Positions 34,900 through 39,810 of a DNA stretch of 64,000 nt are shown piece after piece. The notes beneath the pieces are model-generated. The model was not told the origin of the DNA, did not search any database, and saw only the letters and a program-made list of their open reading frames with translations. The position numbers were made by a program, and so were the translations under genes. The stretch's first letter is position 1. Each line of letters begins with the position of its first letter. Origin of the DNA: Escherichia phage vB_EcoM_011D4; sequence record MT478991.1, one strand, 5' to 3'.

Positions 34900-35079
34900 T
34901 TAGAACATTTTTGAAATTAATTCTGCTTTGATTTCGCAGAGAACATCTAAAGATTTCTCGTCACCTGCTTTTGCGGCTTCTGCTTGCATTTTTGAAATGG
35001 CTTCAATGTCAGTGCAATTATAAGCCGCTTGAACTTTAGCGATTGCGATGATTGCCGATTCGATGGTTAATTGTTTCAT
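34900..35079 (-). CDS. hypothetical early protein (59 aa)
   Basis: ATG after AGGAGAATCAAAC leader; not in ORF track. Confidence 0.45.
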   Translation of the reverse strand: MKQLTIESAIIAIAKVQAAYNCTDIEAISKMQAEAAKAGDEKSLDVLCEIKAELISKMF

Positions 35080-35111
35080 GTTTGATTCTCCTTTCGTTTC
35101 GGTATGGGTGT

Positions 35112-35140
35112 ATTATAGGGGATCGATGATCCCCTGTCAA
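35112..35140 (-). promoter_or_regulatory. early promoter with palindromic spacer (PeSL-like)
   Basis: Minus strand TTGACA-GGGGATCATCGATCCCC-TATAAT. Confidence 0.7.
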
Positions 35141-35148
35141 CAAATTTT

Positions 35149-35667
35149 TTAGTTATTTTTTAATTGCTCATCTTGCAATAGGGCAATCACATGCTGGCGA
35201 TGTTCTTCCGATTGAGGCACACCGAAAAAGTTTGTTTTGTAGAAATACTCTAATCGGTCTTCTCGTGTGCTCTCTTCCATCATGATCGCGGGTAGTCCGA
35301 GATTTCGGAAACGTCGCTTTTCTGCTGGCGTAAAATCACTGTAATACAACATAGAATCATCATTACAAGCAATGCTAAACTCATCCTTCATAAAGGAGAA
35401 TATTGCGTTTAAACGCTGTTTACCGTCCACGATTTCGATCTCATAGCGAGAGCCATCATCAATCTTAGCCATTGCGATAGCACCAACCGGAAAATCATTA
35501 ATCAGGTTTTCGATAAACATACGTTTGTTTTCGGTGTCCCATACTAAAGGACGCTGATAATCTGGGTTCATGTTGATATAGCCATCTTCTAACCATGCAT
35601 CATAAACAGAGATGACAAAGTTTTTAGTATTGGTATAGTAACGGCGTTTAGGCGTTAAACGGTTCAT
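35149..35667 (-). CDS. DUF262 / ParB-like nuclease-domain protein
   Basis: DYQRPLVWD...FPVGAI...IVDGKQRLNAI matches the DUF262 signature; start taken at MNRL with RBS AGGAGA. Confidence 0.65.
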   Translation of the reverse strand: MNRLTPKRRYYTNTKNFVISVYDAWLEDGYINMNPDYQRPLVWDTENKRMFIENLINDFPVGAIAMAKIDDGSRYEIEIVDGKQRLNAIFSFMKDEFSIACNDDSMLYYSDFTPAEKRRFRNLGLPAIMMEESTREDRLEYFYKTNFFGVPQSEEHRQHVIALLQDEQLKNN

Positions 35668-35668
35668 G

Positions 35669-35998
35669 TTATAGTCTCCTGAATGGATCATCACGTAAAT
35701 CAATATCTTTTAAGAACTCATCCCATGAATGGCGGATGTTGTTCTTAATTCTCCAGATAAGAGCAGGGATTGAACGCTCTCCCATCTGGAAGTATGGATC
35801 ATATGATCCGTATGCCCAATATGCTACTACAATTCCACAATCAGCGCAATAGTATTCTATTTCACTTGCTGGCGACCAAAGTCCATCAATATGATCGGTG
35901 ATCTTGCTTTCGATGTTATGGCTATGACAATCAGGGCAACGGATGCAATGACCTTGTTTATCGTAATTTGACGTTAGCGAATACTTAAACAATCTCAT
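35669..35998 (-). CDS. zinc-ribbon protein
   Basis: 109 aa; CIRCPDC...CADC; start/stop coupled with flanking genes. Confidence 0.5.
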   Translation of the reverse strand: MRLFKYSLTSNYDKQGHCIRCPDCHSHNIESKITDHIDGLWSPASEIEYYCADCGIVVAYWAYGSYDPYFQMGERSIPALIWRIKNNIRHSWDEFLKDIDLRDDPFRRL

Positions 35999-36714
35999 TA
36001 TAGATCCTTATTTGCTTCAAATACTGCCTTTGCGAATCCTCGCGGGGTAAGTGACCTTATAGTCTTTGTTTTCGTTCCTTTCCCGCCTAGCTTAGAATGC
36101 TGTTTACTGTACCCTTTATTAATCTGCAACGGTTTCTTTTCTGGCATTATAAAGCCTTGTCCGGTCCATAAGCAAGTCTTTTTCGGGTACATATCACGGG
36201 CGGCAATATACTCAGGAAACGTAGGATGCTTATCATCTTCCGGCAAATAACCGCCATATTCCCACGGATGGAACATGTAATCAGGCTTACGCCACATGCT
36301 AGAGATAACGCTTACAGGATTCTCTATCATGTAGGGAACTCCGAGCCATTCACCCAAATAAGCGGTTATTTTAGCTGCCCGTACATCATGAACTTGAATC
36401 AATGGTCCTTGTTCTCGTTTCTTTCGTTCAAAGTGCGCAGCGCCACTAACAGCTAAATTGGTGCACGGTGGGAATGCAAAGATAATATCCGGTTTCCCCC
36501 ATTCAAGGTCCATTGCTCTTTCCAGCCAGTTCAAATCAATCCAGGTGTTTACATAGGTAATGTTTGGATGTTCAAATCTGGTATTATACTTTTTGTATGT
36601 ACCGTGGTCGGCGTCATCCGCATTAAAGCAGACTACCTTATGACCTGCTTTAGCCCATTCTAGCCCCATTATCCCCGATCCGTCAAAGTTGCAGAATATT
36701 AATTTTTGTTTCAT
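35998..36714 (-). CDS. compact DNA (cytosine-5)-methyltransferase-like protein
   Basis: 238 aa; motif I FDGSG, motif IV FAFPPCTNLAVSG (Pro-Cys), motif VI MIENP, motif IX RSLTPRGF. Confidence 0.6.
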   Translation of the reverse strand: MKQKLIFCNFDGSGIMGLEWAKAGHKVVCFNADDADHGTYKKYNTRFEHPNITYVNTWIDLNWLERAMDLEWGKPDIIFAFPPCTNLAVSGAAHFERKKREQGPLIQVHDVRAAKITAYLGEWLGVPYMIENPVSVISSMWRKPDYMFHPWEYGGYLPEDDKHPTFPEYIAARDMYPKKTCLWTGQGFIMPEKKPLQINKGYSKQHSKLGGKGTKTKTIRSLTPRGFAKAVFEANKDL

Positions 36715-36956
36715 ATACGACCCTTTAACCCAGCACAGATTTTAGTCGGTTCTTTACCGTGCCACATTAAGTAAATTCCGTTAATGCGTCCTTGTTTTGT
36801 ATATGATTCTTTTCTGATCTTCTTATAGTGTCGTGCTTCCTCCGCCGATTGTTTAGAATGTCGGTCATAAAGGAAGAGGAACAAAGGCCAACCATTAGCG
36901 ACCTTAATGCAGTTATTCAAAAATTCCTTATTTCGTTTAATTAATTTTCTTTTCAC
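36711..36956 (-). CDS. hypothetical basic protein
   Basis: 81 aa; ATGA coupling on both sides. Confidence 0.5.
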   Translation of the reverse strand: MKRKLIKRNKEFLNNCIKVANGWPLFLFLYDRHSKQSAEEARHYKKIRKESYTKQGRINGIYLMWHGKEPTKICAGLKGRI

Positions 36957-37204
36957 GCTGCCCCCATTGGTTTGATAGTAACCGAATCTAAAAGACCTTT
37001 GTTAGCCAGTTCGCGGCAAGTTTTCAGATCCGCAACTTCCCAGCCAGCCGCAATCAGGTTATCAATGAGGCTGTTAGCAACTTCTTCGCTCATGAAAGAG
37101 CACTGTTTGCCGATGGTGTAGCGCACACGCTGTAATTTCAGTTTACGGAAGCCTTTAACGTTCAGGTCTTTAGCGATTTTCTTTGCGGTTTCGATGTTAG
37201 CCAT
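36953..37204 (-). CDS. hypothetical protein (first gene of operon)
   Basis: 83 aa directly behind promoter. Confidence 0.5.
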   Translation of the reverse strand: MANIETAKKIAKDLNVKGFRKLKLQRVRYTIGKQCSFMSEEVANSLIDNLIAAGWEVADLKTCRELANKGLLDSVTIKPMGAA

Positions 37205-37244
37205 TGTTTGATTCTCCTAAGTGGTATCTCGTCTTGATGGTTGT

Positions 37245-37273
37245 ATTGTAGGGGAGTTATCCTCCCCTGTCAA
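37245..37273 (-). promoter_or_regulatory. early promoter with palindromic spacer (PeSL-like)
   Basis: Minus strand TTGACA-GGGGAGGATAACTCCCC-TACAAT. Confidence 0.65.
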
Positions 37274-37287
37274 CACTTTTTATAAAA

Positions 37288-37455
37288 TTATTTGTTAATT
37301 TCTGGTGCGTTGCTAGGATAGTAACCTTCTTTAACTCCGAGGTATTTCGCAACCATCCCTACAATCTTCTGTGCTACTACAATGTCAAATTTCAGATAAT
37401 CTTCACCGTAGGTTTCAATGATATATGCTTCACATGCTGCTTTAGTCTCGAACAT
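37288..37455 (-). CDS. hypothetical protein, paralogue of 40544..40711 (copy 1)
   Basis: 55 aa MFETKAACEAYIIETYGEDYLKFDIVVAQKI.GMVAKYLGVKEGYYPSNAPEINK; not in ORF track. Confidence 0.5.
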   Translation of the reverse strand: MFETKAACEAYIIETYGEDYLKFDIVVAQKIVGMVAKYLGVKEGYYPSNAPEINK

Positions 37456-37488
37456 TTTGATTCTCCTATTTCGTTTCGGTATGTGTGC

Positions 37489-37517
37489 ATTATAGGGGAT
37501 CTCCCGATCCCCGTCAA
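37489..37517 (-). promoter_or_regulatory. early promoter with palindromic spacer (PeSL-like)
   Basis: Minus strand TTGACG-GGGATCGGGAGATCCCC-TATAAT. Confidence 0.65.
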
Positions 37518-37530
37518 CAACTTTTTTAAA

Positions 37531-37812
37531 TTATTCGTGATTAGTTTCGATGTTGTGCATTTTGCACCAGTTCAGCCAATCGCCAAGATCTTGATAGTTG
37601 ATGCTTTTATCTGCTGCCATCGTTTTTGTCTTGATACCCATATGTGCGTTATGAGTAAGCATTTTTACAGTGAACTCGATTTTATCGCCTTTAGCTTTAA
37701 CATCAACCAGTTTGGTCCACTGGCTACCAGCGCCGCGAATGTTCATACCAACGATGTTTCCGATGTATGCTTCTTTGTTTTTCAGGATTTCGGTTGCTTT
37801 GATGAATTTCAT
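37531..37812 (-). CDS. hypothetical early protein
   Basis: 93-aa ORF behind consensus promoter/leader. Confidence 0.5.
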   Translation of the reverse strand: MKFIKATEILKNKEAYIGNIVGMNIRGAGSQWTKLVDVKAKGDKIEFTVKMLTHNAHMGIKTKTMAADKSINYQDLGDWLNWCKMHNIETNHE

Positions 37813-39608: not shown

Positions 39609-39810
39609 ATTCTAGTTCTCCGTAATACACAGTAATCCATTTTTCTTCATACTTTGTATCTTTCCAGCACACAATCCCGTTTACTGTGCAATCTTTGGAA
39701 TTGACGAATGATTCATATTGTTCTGCATCTTCCATCATTGCATGAGCGGTCTTTTCATCGAATATATCGCAGATCGCTTTATATGCTCGATAATCTTTAA
39801 ATTTGCTCAT
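39595..39810 (-). CDS. hypothetical protein, tandem paralogue 1 (MSKFKDYRAY)
   Basis: Listed ORF starts at a TTG; ATG at 39810; about 50% identical to the next gene. Confidence 0.45.
   Translation of the reverse strand: MSKFKDYRAYKAICDIFDEKTAHAMMEDAEQYESFVNSKDCTVNGIVCWKDTKYEEKWITVYYGELEYEIN

What the first reader, a model, noticed from the sequence alone, without database searches (positions are those of the whole stretch)
35149..37273. Five-gene early operon pairing a compact C5-methyltransferase-like enzyme with a stand-alone DUF262 protein
One palindrome-containing promoter (37245-37273) drives five translationally coupled genes (ATGA/TAA-ATG overlaps at each junction): 83 aa, 81 aa, a 238-aa protein with cytosine-5 methyltransferase motifs (FDGSG, FPPC, ENP, RSLTPRGF) but a very short target-recognition region, a CxxC...CxxC zinc ribbon, and a 172-aa protein carrying the DUF262 signature (DYQRPLVW, IVDGKQRL). 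DUF262 is the domain found at the N-terminus of GmrSD/BrxU/SspE-type modification-sensing defence nucleases. A phage-borne methyltransferase fold together with a nuclease-less DUF262 and a zinc ribbon is not a canonical T4 module, and it sits in the fast-evolving early region where anti-defence and DNA-modification genes accumulate. It could be a DNA modification system, a decoy for DUF262-based host defences, or a self/non-self discrimination module.
Basis: partly seen in the sequence, partly recalled or inferred. Interest (0 to 1): 0.8.

Follow-up and report, generated by a model that had tools for sequence, protein, structure and literature searches.

The report
Phage methyltransferase paired with ParB-like protein
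A known but uncharacterised early gene block of RB49-like coliphages pairs a stripped-down cytosine methyltransferase with a stripped-down ParB/DUF262 nucleotide-binding protein. That kind of pairing recurs with unrelated methyltransferases in other phages and bacteria, so the two may work together on DNA methylation.

Summary
**Observation: confirmed.**
- The window is a Krischvirus (RB49-like). The block 35149-37273 (minus strand) is RB49 ORFs 190, 189.1, 189, 188 and 187.
- It is five tightly packed genes between two known PeSL promoter/terminator cassettes.

**The two informative proteins**
- The 238-aa protein has a C5-cytosine methyltransferase fold with motifs I, IV and VI conserved and almost no target-recognition domain. 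Its Pfam PF00145 score is below threshold.
- The 172-aa protein is a complete DUF262 core (QRxxxW, DGxQR, FxxxN; ParB N-domain fold). It has no DNA-binding domain and no nuclease.

**Linkage**
- All five genes occur together only in Krischvirus. Each family otherwise has its own distribution, and one variant contig lacks the 81-aa gene.
- At superfamily level the pairing is not random. Short DUF262 genes lie within 1.3 kb of unrelated DNA methyltransferases in 10 further viral loci, against 1 in the outer flanks, which hold 3.2 times more sequence.
- Bacterial DUF262 relatives are often encoded directly after methyltransferases.
- Recent papers show that ParB-like proteins activate phage DNA-modifying enzymes.

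**Reading and counter-evidence**
- Best reading (confidence about 0.4): sparse DNA methylation assisted or read by the DUF262 core.
- Against it, Krischvirus TB34 DNA shows no detectable modified nucleosides.
- However, the TB34 assembly differs from its sister phage only at CCSGG centres, which may be a trace of modification.

**Verdict:** new variant of a known kind, moderate interest.

The parts
37245..37273 (-). Upstream PeSL cassette. It is a sigma-70-type early promoter (-35 TTGACA at 37273-37268, -10 TACAAT at 37250-37245). The 17-nt spacer holds the stem-loop GGGGAGGATAACTCCCC.
   Evidence: The PeSL class is described for RB49/phi1 in PMC2839356.
36953..37204 (-). 83-aa protein (RB49p190), function unknown. 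It is restricted to Krischvirus.
   Evidence: phrog_14908, E = 5e-59. tblastn finds it in 56 records, all Krischvirus, at 95% identity or more. Weak PADLOC hit to RT_UG35 positions 722-785, E = 2.6e-5.
36711..36956 (-). 81-aa protein (RB49p189.1) with a GTG start overlapping the upstream stop codon. It is an optional and fast-diverging gene.
   Evidence: phrog_7065. tblastn finds 172 records, including T5-like, Dhakavirus and Karamvirus phages; only 48 Krischvirus records exceed 80% identity, at 88-95%. The gene is precisely absent from IMGVR_UViG_3300045988_033703.
35998..36714 (-). 238-aa minimal C5-cytosine methyltransferase-family enzyme (RB49p189, phrog_757). Motif I is FDGSG, motif IV is FPPC with the Cys84 nucleophile, motif VI is ENP, and RSLTPRG resembles motif IX. 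The target-recognition domain is almost absent.
35669..35998 (-). 109-aa CxxC...CxxC zinc-ribbon protein (RB49p188, phrog_2993). Its start is coupled to the methyltransferase stop codon (TAATG).
   Evidence: Pfam Zn_Ribbon_TF, sub-threshold, E = 5.6e-4. tblastn finds 292 records, including Queuovirinae and Felixounavirus.
35149..35667 (-). 172-aa stand-alone DUF262 core (RB49p187). It has a ParB/Srx N-domain fold. Motifs are QRxxxW (Q38-W43), DGKQR (81-85) and FxxxN (F142-N146), followed by the invariant GVPQSEEH. It has no ParBDB DNA-binding domain and no DUF1524/HNH nuclease.
   Evidence: AlphaFold2 model pLDDT 93.2. Foldseek hits to ParB, Noc, PadC, KorB and BrxU. Motif definitions are from PMC12065111.
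35112..35140 (-). Downstream PeSL cassette. It is a consensus TTGACA/TATAAT promoter with the stem-loop GGGGATCATCGATCCCC. It ends the five-gene unit and drives the next small gene.

Best explanation
The block is one early transcription unit of a Krischvirus, bounded by two PeSL promoter/terminator cassettes.

**The functional core, as I read it**
- A minimal orphan C5-cytosine methyltransferase. The catalytic fold and motifs are intact and there is almost no target-recognition domain.
- A minimal DUF262 protein. It is only the ParB-fold nucleotide-binding core, with no DNA-binding or nuclease domain.

**Proposed mechanism**
- Most likely the methyltransferase places sparse 5-methylcytosine marks on DNA early in infection, as an anti-restriction or epigenetic measure. 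One candidate site is CCSGG.
- The DUF262 core acts with it on DNA as an NTP-dependent accessory, either as an activator/loader or as a reader of the mark.
- This would parallel stand-alone ParB-like proteins that activate phage thymine dioxygenases on double-stranded DNA. It would also parallel the ParB-methyltransferase fusions common in phages.
- The 83-aa, 81-aa and zinc-ribbon genes are separately shuffled accessory genes whose roles are unknown.

**Shown versus inferred**
- Shown: gene structure, folds, motif conservation, the PeSL boundaries, gene distributions, and the enrichment of methyltransferases next to DUF262 genes.
- Inferred: that the enzyme methylates DNA, its site, and any physical or functional cooperation with the DUF262 protein.
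For: **Fold and motifs**
- The SAM-binding and catalytic residues are invariant in 28 homologues at 57-64% identity.
- More than 7,300 clusters exist; the 120 best listed are all 219-259 aa, so compactness is a family trait.
- In other phages the family sits in replication/early modules. In 19 of 78 loci it lies beside a phage Dam methylase.

**DUF262**
- It scores above the Pfam cut-off and all three defining motifs are invariant.
- The model has pLDDT 93 and matches ParB/Noc/PadC/KorB/BrxU N-domains.

**Linkage**
- The genes are translationally coupled in one PeSL-bounded unit.
- MTase, Zn ribbon and DUF262 stay together in all 56 Krischvirus records. They also stay together in the variant contig that lost the 81-aa gene and has a replaced 5' half of p83.
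- Among 80 viral loci around short DUF262 genes, DNA methyltransferases of at least 6 unrelated families lie within 1.3 kb in 12 loci. These are phrog_757, phrog_954, Dam D12, PF00145, phrog_799, phrog_6263 and EcoRI-like. Only 1 lies in the outer 1.3-6 kb zone, which holds 3.2 times more sequence.
- In bacterial genomes, DUF262 relatives retrieved with this family's motifs often directly follow genuine MTases with a 4-bp overlap: C5, D12 and N6_Mtase types.

**Literature precedents**
- A stand-alone ParB lacking a DNA-binding domain is required by a phage T-dioxygenase on dsDNA (PMC13229309).
- ParB-CTPase folds fused to DNA MTases are enriched in phages (PMC12704722).
- ParBc genes neighbour phage CmoX (PMC12783734).

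**Possible trace of activity**
- In the first 50 kb, the TB34 assembly differs from Illumina-sequenced SAP by only 8 substitutions.
- All 8 are CCSGG to CCWGG at the central base, affecting 8 of 17 CCSGG sites. At six of the eight sites Sanger RB49 agrees with SAP, and the window does at five. Three are radical amino-acid changes in capsid or fibritin genes.
- They occur alongside homopolymer errors in TB34.
Against: - TB34 carries an operon identical to SAP's. HPLC/MS found no detectable modified nucleosides, and its DNA was not cut by BrxU, which cleaves 5mC DNA (PMC13390438). Only sparse or conditional methylation remains possible.
- The methyltransferase family does not generally need a DUF262 partner. 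None of 78 non-Krischvirus loci has a DUF262 or ParB-like gene within 5 kb.
- Of the 78 non-Krischvirus short-DUF262 loci, 68 have no detected methyltransferase within 1.3 kb.
- In Krischvirus the two genes are separated by the zinc-ribbon gene.
- No enzyme of this family has a published activity or specificity that I could find.
- The BASEL study found no simple link between phage MTase genes and restriction resistance in Drexlerviridae.
- The CCSGG signal rests on an unverified assumption that TB34 was assembled from modification-sensitive long reads.
- No complex prediction could be run.
Confidence: 0.4

Rival explanations
1. There is no functional coupling. The five genes are independent accessory genes brought next to each other by PeSL-mediated modular shuffling. 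The methyltransferase is a stand-alone orphan anti-restriction enzyme, as in the many other phages that carry it. The DUF262 protein has an unrelated and unknown role.
For: - The five families have different distributions in the phage collection: 1581, 326, 292, 172 and 56 records.
- None of 78 + 78 non-Krischvirus loci share the pair.
- The 81-aa gene is exactly deleted in one contig, and the 5' half of p83 is replaced there.
- PeSLs are documented recombination cassettes in this very region of RB49/phi1 (PMC2839356).
- GC content is uniform across the block.
Against: - Unrelated methyltransferases are enriched within 1.3 kb of DUF262 genes in viral loci: 14 MTase ORFs in 203 kb against 1 in 659 kb.
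- MTase-DUF262 pairs with 4-bp overlaps occur in bacteria.
- The MTase, Zn-ribbon and DUF262 trio is invariant even where the upstream genes vary.
- The trio is translationally coupled.
Confidence: 0.3
2. The pair is a disarmed restriction module, or a decoy. Bacterial MTase + DUF262 pairs act as restriction-modification-like defences, and GmrSD/BrxU/SspE/Menshen use DUF262 as the DNA-modification sensor. The phage keeps a methyltransferase to protect its DNA. It also keeps a nuclease-less DUF262 core that poisons host DUF262 nucleases, for example by forming dead hetero-oligomers or by occupying the sensed DNA.
For: - The protein is the DUF262 core only.
- Its best PADLOC matches are defence proteins: NsnA (E = 6e-20), PD-T4-2_A (E = 5e-12) and REase_II (E = 1e-7).
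- Bacterial relatives sit directly after methyltransferases.
- A nuclease-less GmrS1 is an obligatory partner of GmrSD2 in ECOR17, so DUF262 proteins do work as hetero-assemblies (PMC12373910).
- BrxU cuts 5mC DNA, so a methylating phage would need such protection.
- Adjacency to many unrelated MTase families fits a link to methylation itself rather than to one enzyme.
Against: - No anti-defence activity is reported for any short DUF262.
- All three NTP-binding motifs and an extra GVPQSEEH motif are invariant across 33 diverse members. That argues for an enzymatic or switch function rather than a passive mimic.
- The known GmrSD inhibitors (Ip1-3) are unrelated injected proteins.
- Krischvirus DNA is reported as unmodified cytosine in TB34, so GmrSD-type enzymes are not an obvious threat.
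Confidence: 0.15
3. The methyltransferase-like enzyme does not make ordinary site-specific 5mC in DNA. It could act on RNA or nucleotides. Alternatively it could be a low-specificity first step of a post-replicative cytosine hypermodification pathway.
For: - There is almost no target-recognition domain, yet the replacing segment (residues about 145-217) is highly conserved across phages of different hosts. That is unlike the diversifying specificity domains of restriction-evading enzymes (my inference).
- No 5mC was detected in TB34.
- Krischviruses encode no tRNAs.
- SAP is reported as carrying glucosyl-hydroxymethyl-dC by an unknown pathway.
Against: - The closest folds are DNA enzymes.
- The family sits beside phage Dam methylases and replication genes.
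- TB34 and SAP have identical operons but opposite reported modification states.
- The authors who looked found no dioxygenase or glycosyltransferase in Krischvirus.
- FPPC and the invariant C-terminal Asn do not match the CmoX signature.
Confidence: 0.1

Closest known systems
ParB-dependent phage thymine dioxygenases (5mYOX176/ParB176; PMC13229309)
   Same: A phage post-replicative DNA base-modifying enzyme is encoded with a separate small ParB-fold protein. That protein lacks an obvious DNA-binding domain and is needed for activity on double-stranded DNA.
   Different: The enzyme there is a 2OG/Fe dioxygenase, not a methyltransferase. The partner is a canonical ParB N-domain plus a C-terminal dimerisation domain, not a DUF262. 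Dependence is shown experimentally there and is only inferred here.
ParB-CTPase-fold / ParBc fusions and neighbours of phage DNA methyltransferases (PMC12704722; CmoX loci in PMC12783734)
   Same: A ParB-superfamily NTP-binding module is associated with DNA methyltransferases, enriched in phages and prophages, with function unknown.
   Different: Those are PF02195-type domains, usually fused to N6/N4 or Methyltransf_23 enzymes. Here the module is a separate DUF262-type (PF03235) gene next to a C5-type enzyme. The ParB survey does not mention DUF262.
GmrSD / BrxU / SspE and Menshen NsnA (DUF262-based defence proteins)
   Same: Same DUF262 domain with the QRxxxW, DGxQR and FxxxN motifs. In those systems it is an NTPase that senses modified DNA.
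   Different: The phage protein stops after the DUF262 core. It has no ParBDB DNA-binding domain, no DUF1524/HNH nuclease and no NsnB/NsnC partners. It is phage-encoded and expressed early, not a host defence.
Bacterial MTase-DUF262 gene pairs (seen here in loci L180-L250; cf. PADLOC REase_II PDLC03418)
   Same: A methyltransferase gene is followed on the same strand by a DUF262 gene, with C5 as well as N6 enzymes.
   Different: Bacterial partners are full size: MTases of 350-880 aa with recognition domains, and DUF262 proteins of 345-640 aa. They overlap directly by 4 bp. In the phage both are minimal and a zinc-ribbon gene lies between them.
DNMT3A/3B with DNMT3L (eukaryotic compact C5-MTases)
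   Same: This is the best structural match. It is a C5-MTase catalytic domain with a very small target-recognition region. From my own knowledge, it depends on oligomerisation and an accessory protein for efficient DNA methylation.
   Different: Sequence identity is only 17%. The accessory protein there is an inactive MTase paralogue, not a ParB fold. There is no evolutionary link.
PeSL cassettes of RB49/phi1 (PMC2839356, PMC4122927)
   Same: The flanking palindromic promoters are members of this published class: a strong sigma-70-like promoter plus a stem-loop terminator in hyperplastic regions.
   Different: Nothing differs. This part of the finding is already known.

Membership tests
DUF262 / GmrSD_N (PF03235) | Profile score above the curated cut-off | tested here: met
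   72.7 bits against a cut-off of 33.2, E = 5.9e-20.
DUF262 / GmrSD_N (PF03235) | Three motifs: QRxxxW, DGxQR and FxxxN (PMC12065111) | tested here: met
   Y37-Q38-R39..W43, D81-G82-K83-Q84-R85 and F142..N146 are all invariant in 33 family members.
DUF262 / GmrSD_N (PF03235) | ParB/Srx N-domain fold | tested here: met
   The AlphaFold2 model has pLDDT 93.2. Foldseek best hits are ParB, Noc, PadC, KorB and BrxU, with E down to 4e-4 and TM 0.4-0.5.
GmrSD-type Type IV restriction enzyme | C-terminal DUF1524/HNH nuclease domain | tested here: not met
   The protein ends about 25 residues after motif III. Pfam and PADLOC find no second domain.
Menshen NsnA | ParBDB DNA-binding domain after DUF262, plus NsnB ATPase and NsnC effector genes | tested here: not met
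   The match to NsnA covers only profile positions 48-187 of 385. The neighbouring genes are a Zn-ribbon gene and a PeSL, with no ATPase or effector.
C5-cytosine DNA methyltransferase (PF00145) | Profile score above the curated cut-off | tested here: not met
   15.7 bits against a cut-off of 22, residues 10-100 only. HMM searches against PDB sequences gave no hit.
C5-cytosine DNA methyltransferase (PF00145) | Catalytic motifs: I (FxGxG), IV (PC with Cys nucleophile) and VI (ENV) | tested here: met
   F10-x-G12-S-G14, P82-P83-C84 and E131-N132-P133 are invariant in 28 homologues.
C5-cytosine DNA methyltransferase (PF00145) | C5-MTase catalytic-domain fold | tested here: met
C5-cytosine DNA methyltransferase (PF00145) | Separate target-recognition domain between motifs VIII and IX | tested here: not met
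   The whole protein is 238 aa. About 70 conserved residues replace the usual domain of 100 aa or more. All 120 best homologues are 219-259 aa.
C5-cytosine DNA methyltransferase (PF00145) | Formation of 5-methylcytosine in DNA | not testable with these tools
   The only relevant data are indirect. No modified nucleoside was detected in TB34. Against that, there are CCSGG-specific discrepancies in the TB34 assembly.
CmoX DNA cytosine C5-carboxymethyltransferase | SPPC motif, and Arg in place of the motif X Asn (R350) | tested here: not met
   Motif IV is (A/G)(F/W/Y)PPC, never SPPC. The only invariant C-terminal polar residue is N235. The equivalence of N235 to HhaI N304 could not be verified; hhalign aligned only motif IV.
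CmoX DNA cytosine C5-carboxymethyltransferase | Phage-encoded CmoA and CmoY neighbours | tested here: not met
   No such genes lie within the operon or its flanks.
PeSL regulatory cassette | Near-consensus sigma-70 promoter with a G-tract/C-tract stem-loop between or over the hexamers, in intergenic position, repeated in the hyperplastic region | tested here: met
   Definition from PMC2839356.
ParB-dependent DNA-modification module | Activity of the modifying enzyme depends on the ParB-fold protein | not testable with these tools
   Only gene-neighbourhood enrichment is available.

The most novel reading that the evidence does not exclude
The TRD-less C5-methyltransferase and the DNA-binding-domain-less DUF262 form a new kind of methylation machine. 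The ParB-fold NTP switch would load or clamp the enzyme on DNA and so substitute for a target-recognition domain. The result would be broad-context or processive cytosine methylation. That activity would be the missing first step of the unexplained post-replicative cytosine hypermodification reported for Krischvirus SAP. It would also be the 'broadly acting C5-cytosine methyltransferase' that PMC13229309 says has not yet been identified.
Probability: 0.05. Interest if true: 0.85.

Novelty: new variant of a known kind. Interest (0 to 1): 0.5.

Why it matters
- If the DUF262 core works with the methyltransferase, the newly recognised principle that phages use ParB-fold proteins to control DNA base modification would extend to the DUF262 branch and to C5-methyltransferases.
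- It would give a function to two very large families of unknown role: more than 7,300 clusters of 230-aa phage 'methylases' and about 2,900 clusters matching the short-DUF262 profile.
- It would also explain why DUF262, known mainly as the sensor of modification-dependent nucleases, is so often encoded next to methyltransferases.
- Practically, a minimal C5-methyltransferase whose targeting is supplied in trans would be a useful enzyme.
- The Krischvirus modification puzzle (TB34 versus SAP) would gain a concrete candidate locus.
- If the genes prove independent, the block is an ordinary example of PeSL-driven accessory-gene shuffling.

Tried and rejected
- **Sequence searches against solved structures.** A single sequence and a 29-sequence profile gave nothing for the methyltransferase-like protein and only noise for DUF262.
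- **Motif X equivalence.** hhalign of the family profile against E. coli Dcm aligned only motif IV, so the equivalence (SAM versus Cx-SAM use) stays open.
- **NCBIfam.** It gave no usable hit for any of the five proteins.
- **Conserved partner of the short DUF262.** Neighbour clustering gave only lineage-specific neighbours: Ead/Ea22, DUF551, Rad52 and integrase in lambdoid prophages, and NUDIX in T4-like phages.
- **Zinc-ribbon ORFs next to DUF262.** They are not enriched: 17 in the inner zone against 44 in the outer zone, similar per kb. I dropped the idea of a general Zn-ribbon partner.
- **ELT3, ELT4 and FL04 'two-piece' hits.** These looked like insertions in the operon but are joined PeSL repeats.
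- **SAP versus TB34.** I compared them hoping for a causal difference. Within the operon they are identical. The only local change is an extra 79-bp PeSL. The 'SNPs' are probably artefacts.
- **OZ035808 'Krischvirus RB49'.** It is not a re-sequencing of RB49 (1.5% divergent), so it could not serve as a platform control.
- **Scan of IMG/VR for the portal-gene CCNGG site.** It returned one contig only.
- **Literature searches.** Searches for an assayed member of the methyltransferase family, or for a phage DUF262 anti-defence protein, found none. The paper describing TB34 sequencing (PMC10537673) is not held.
- **Bacterial-genome scan.** It returned mostly long DUF262 proteins. It therefore supports a superfamily-level association, not a replication for the short form.


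Full report
**1. What is there**

The window is a Krischvirus, an RB49-like T4-type coliphage. Megablast of 35000-37400 finds 56 phage genomes covering at least 80% of the query at 95-99% identity, including RB49, phi1, JSE, GEC-3S, TB34 and SAP.

The block corresponds to RB49p190, p189.1, p189, p188 and p187, just upstream of two small ORFs and the alt gene. All five ORFs are on the minus strand at the stated coordinates.

- Gene junctions are GTGA (the 81-aa gene starts with GTG), ATGA, TAATG and TAA-C-ATG.
- The promoter at 37273-37245 has TTGACA and TACAAT hexamers with a GGGGAG/CTCCCC palindrome in the 17-nt spacer.
- A second, consensus copy (35140-35112) begins 9 nt after the DUF262 stop codon.
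- The pattern TTGACAGGGG(N6-12)CCCCTA occurs 5 times in the window against 0 expected.

These are the published PeSL cassettes of RB49/phi1. They are strong sigma-70-like early promoters whose stem-loops terminate upstream transcription, and they mediate modular shuffling in hyperplastic regions (PMC2839356). The five genes form one PeSL-to-PeSL unit. GC content is uniform.

**2. The methyltransferase-like protein**

Pfam PF00145 matches only residues 10-100, at 15.7 bits and below the cut-off of 22. phrog_757 'DNA methyltransferase' matches end to end at E = 8e-91.

The family is very large. More than 7,300 clusters at 90% identity were found, and the 120 best listed are all 219-259 aa. It occurs in 1,581 phage records, including Kagunavirus, rV5-like, Webervirus and other Drexlerviridae, and Dhillonvirus.

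In 28 homologues at 57-64% identity the following are invariant:
- F10/G12/S13/G14 (motif I).
- P82-P83-C84-T85 (motif IV, with the nucleophile).
- E131-N132-P133 (motif VI).
- W141-R142.
- R220-S-L-T-P-R225-G226 (motif IX-like).
- N235.

The roughly 70 residues that replace the target-recognition domain are themselves strongly conserved. The protein does not carry the CmoX signature. Motif IV is FPPC rather than SPPC, and an invariant C-terminal Asn stands where CmoX would have Arg. However, I could not verify the motif X alignment.

In other phages the gene lies in early/replication modules. It sits beside a phage Dam methylase in 19 loci, and elsewhere beside SNF2 or DUF3987 helicase genes or NinG. 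No ParB-like neighbour was found.

**3. The DUF262 protein**

Pfam GmrSD_N is significant at 72.7 bits. The three defining motifs are all invariant. So is an additional C-terminal GVPQSEEH motif.

The model has pLDDT 93.2. It matches the nucleotide-binding N-domains of ParB, Noc, PadC, KorB and BrxU.

The protein ends about 25 residues after motif III. It therefore lacks the ParBDB DNA-binding domain and any nuclease.

It belongs to a family of stand-alone proteins of 160-190 aa, with forms of 260-295 aa that appear to carry N-terminal extensions (P0127 does). The family profile matches about 2,900 clusters. It occurs in 326 phage records, including Slopekvirus, other T4-like phages of Citrobacter and Cronobacter, Henunavirus and ST64B-like prophages.

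**4. Are the five genes a unit?**

Within Krischvirus, largely yes. All 56 genomes carry p83, the methyltransferase, the zinc ribbon and DUF262.

Outside the genus, no.
- p83 is genus-specific.
- p81 occurs in T5-like, Dhakavirus and Karamvirus phages. It is present at more than 80% identity in only 48 Krischvirus records and is more diverged than its neighbours.
- The zinc ribbon occurs in Queuovirinae and Felixounavirus.

In IMG/VR I examined 80 loci centred on short DUF262 genes and 80 centred on the methyltransferase family. The Krischvirus combination appears only in the two Krischvirus contigs.

One of those contigs, IMGVR_UViG_3300045988_033703, lacks the 81-aa gene exactly. The deletion joins the similar MK(R/Q)KLI-coding starts of p81 and of the methyltransferase. 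That contig also has a different 5' half of p83 and no PeSL there, while methyltransferase, Zn ribbon and DUF262 remain intact. The stable core is thus the downstream trio.

**5. A superfamily-level association**

I screened all ORFs in the 80 DUF262-centred viral loci with a position-neutral motif filter. I verified candidates with Pfam and PHROGs, and then searched all ORFs with the verified enzymes.

DNA methyltransferases lie within 1.3 kb of the DUF262 gene in 12 loci:

| Loci | Lineage | Methyltransferase |
|---|---|---|
| L005, L006 | Krischvirus | phrog_757 |
| L010 | lambdoid prophage | phrog_954 |
| L011 | lambdoid prophage | Dam D12, plus a PF00145 C5 enzyme |
| L027, L030, L036, L037, L039 | Henunavirus-like (cf. 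Erwinia phage pEp_SNUABM_01) | phrog_799 |
| L031 | - | phrog_6263 |
| L061, L068 | - | EcoRI-like adenine methylases overlapping the start of a longer DUF262 gene |

- L068 additionally carries a ParB_N-N6_N4 fusion.
- Only one methyltransferase (L083) lies in the 1.3-6 kb outer zone, although that zone holds 3.2 times more sequence (203 kb against 659 kb).
- Counting lineages rather than loci gives 6-7 inner events against 1 outer. By my binomial estimate, under a uniform placement model, that split has a probability of about 1e-3.

In bacterial genomes, DUF262 relatives retrieved with this family's motifs are mostly 345-640 aa.
- About 20 of 80 directly follow a candidate methyltransferase.
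- All eight candidates that I checked were confirmed: four C5 (PF00145), three D12 and one N6_Mtase with an S domain.

MTase-DUF262 adjacency is therefore a widespread architecture. Krischvirus carries a version in which both partners are minimal.

**6. Literature context**

- A stand-alone ParB-like protein without a DNA-binding domain is required by one subclass of phage thymine dioxygenases on double-stranded DNA. [quoted passage not shown]
- ParB-CTPase folds fused to DNA methyltransferases are enriched in phages (PMC12704722).
- ParBc genes are frequent near phage CmoX (PMC12783734).
- DUF262 is regarded as the NTPase sensor of modified DNA in GmrSD, BrxU, SspE and Menshen (PMC12065111).
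- A nuclease-less GmrS1 is an obligatory partner of GmrSD2 in ECOR17 (PMC12373910).
- I found no paper that assays a member of either phage family.

**7. Evidence on activity**

Against bulk modification:
- Krischvirus TB34 has the same operon. Within the operon it is identical to its sister SAP.
- HPLC/MS shows only canonical nucleosides in TB34, and its DNA is not digested by BrxU (PMC13390438).
- A frequent-site enzyme acting on virion DNA is therefore excluded for TB34.
- About 70 CCSGG sites per genome would give roughly 0.2% of cytosines by my estimate. That could escape detection.

An indirect hint of sparse modification, from the first 50 kb of TB34 versus SAP:
- The only substitutions are 8 changes, all CCSGG (SAP) to CCWGG (TB34) at the central base. 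They affect 8 of 17 CCSGG sites.
- At six of these sites Sanger-sequenced RB49 agrees with Illumina-sequenced SAP, and the window does at five. At one site RB49 and the window carry the CCWGG allele, and at one they carry neither.
- Three changes would be P>L or G>R in gp23, fibritin and gp24.
- The remaining differences are mostly 1-bp homopolymer-length differences. At every site that could be compared, TB34 alone disagrees with RB49, SAP and the window, and two of them split uvsW and inh in TB34.
- Sources.

Motif-restricted miscalls combined with homopolymer errors are what modification-sensitive long-read assemblies produce. From my own knowledge, E. coli K-12 has no CCSGG methylase. I therefore flag CCSGG (or CCNGG) as a candidate target of the phage enzyme.

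This is inference. The sequencing platform of TB34 could not be checked. Real mutations or a polishing artefact are not excluded.

Both CCSGG (14 observed, 40.6 ± 7.2 expected) and CCWGG (23 observed, 51.8 ± 7.7 expected) are under-represented in the window.

**8. Interpretation**

I rank four readings.

| Reading | Confidence |
|---|---|
| (a) The methyltransferase makes sparse DNA 5mC, and the DUF262 core is its NTP-dependent accessory or reader | 0.4 |
| (b) No coupling: independent accessory genes juxtaposed by PeSL shuffling | 0.3 |
| (c) A disarmed restriction module or decoy against host DUF262 nucleases | 0.15 |
| (d) A non-canonical substrate or a hypermodification first step | 0.1 |

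- Reading (a) is favoured by the neighbourhood enrichment across unrelated methyltransferase families, by the experimental ParB precedent, and by the complementary 'missing parts' of both proteins.
- It is weakened because most members of each family occur without the other, and by the TB34 chemistry.

**9. Verdict**

The features are real, but the block is a long-sequenced, genus-conserved and partly annotated locus. Its promoter type is already described.

What is new here:
- Definition of both proteins as minimal versions of their folds.
- Evidence that DUF262 genes, in phages as in bacteria, are preferentially neighbours of methyltransferases.
- A testable candidate site.

I classify it as a new variant of a known kind (a ParB-fold partner of a phage DNA-modifying enzyme), with moderate interest.

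Noticed in passing
L167 (SAP, OZ034687.1 1-50000) versus L168 (TB34, OX001802.1 1-50000); equivalent window sites include 2907, 7041, 10694, 14898 and 26651: All 8 substitutions between these two phages (reported as 99.96% identical) are CCSGG to CCWGG at the central base in TB34, affecting 8 of 17 CCSGG sites. Three are radical amino-acid changes. The remaining differences are mostly 1-bp homopolymer-length differences, and at every comparable site TB34 alone disagrees with RB49, SAP and the window. The published SNP comparison of the pair was probably looking at assembly artefacts. The motif specificity may betray a base modification in TB34 DNA.
   Followed up: partly
L003 582-660 (SAP 39625-39703); the insertion point corresponds to window ~35080: SAP carries an extra 79-bp PeSL copy (GGGGGATCGGTGATCCCCC stem) between the DUF262 stop codon and the next small gene. 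It is the only difference from TB34 in or next to the operon, and it accounts for 79 of the 112-bp genome length difference.
   Followed up: partly
L086 4300-5100 / L005 (IMGVR_UViG_3300045988_033703), aligned to window 36600-37400: This Krischvirus-like contig lacks the 81-aa gene exactly. The deletion lies between the similar MK(R/Q)KLI-coding starts of p81 and the methyltransferase. The 5' half of p83 and the upstream PeSL are replaced by unrelated sequence.
   Followed up: yes
window 36711-36956: The 81-aa gene is much more diverged among Krischvirus genomes (88-95% protein identity) than its neighbours (97-100%). The differences between ELT3 and the window within the five-gene block cluster in it.
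   Followed up: partly
window 36953-37204: The genus-specific 83-aa protein gives a weak PADLOC match to the C-terminal region (positions 722-785 of 938) of the UG35 defence reverse transcriptase, E = 2.6e-5.
   Followed up: no
whole window: CCSGG (14 observed, 40.6 ± 7.2 expected) and CCWGG (23 observed, 51.8 ± 7.7 expected) are both about 2.5-fold under-represented. By simple base-composition expectation, CCGG is not (115 against about 102).
   Followed up: partly
window 37456-37530, between the 55-aa ORF (37288-37455) and the 93-aa ORF (37531-37812): RB49 ORF192, the PeSL-flanked ORFan used as the model for PeSL mini-circles, is absent here, as it is in ELT3 and, per PMC2839356, in phi1. 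A single PeSL takes its place.
   Followed up: partly
L180-L250 (bacterial genome loci), e.g. L181 3934-7296 and L185 4843-7026: Many bacterial DUF262 proteins of 345-640 aa are encoded with a 4-bp overlap directly after C5, Dam-like or N6 methyltransferases. This is a two-gene restriction-modification-like architecture. Many of the 345-385-aa DUF262 ORFs also contain a D/NPPY tetrapeptide of unknown meaning.
   Followed up: partly
L014-L025, L034 (T4-like phages of Klebsiella, Citrobacter and Cronobacter), 0.4-1.2 kb downstream of the DUF262 gene: A conserved 58-64-aa protein with a DnaJ-type CxxCxGxG...CxxCxGxG zinc finger follows the short DUF262 gene in this lineage. NUDIX genes are also frequent neighbours.
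   Followed up: no
PMC13390438 (SAP versus TB34 chemistry): SAP is reported as fully glucosyl-hydroxymethyl-dC modified although Krischvirus lacks the known pathway genes. It assembled cleanly from a Nextera (PCR-based) Illumina library and was the DNA least cut by BrxU. A mixed lysate with a Tequatrovirus seems worth excluding.
   Followed up: no
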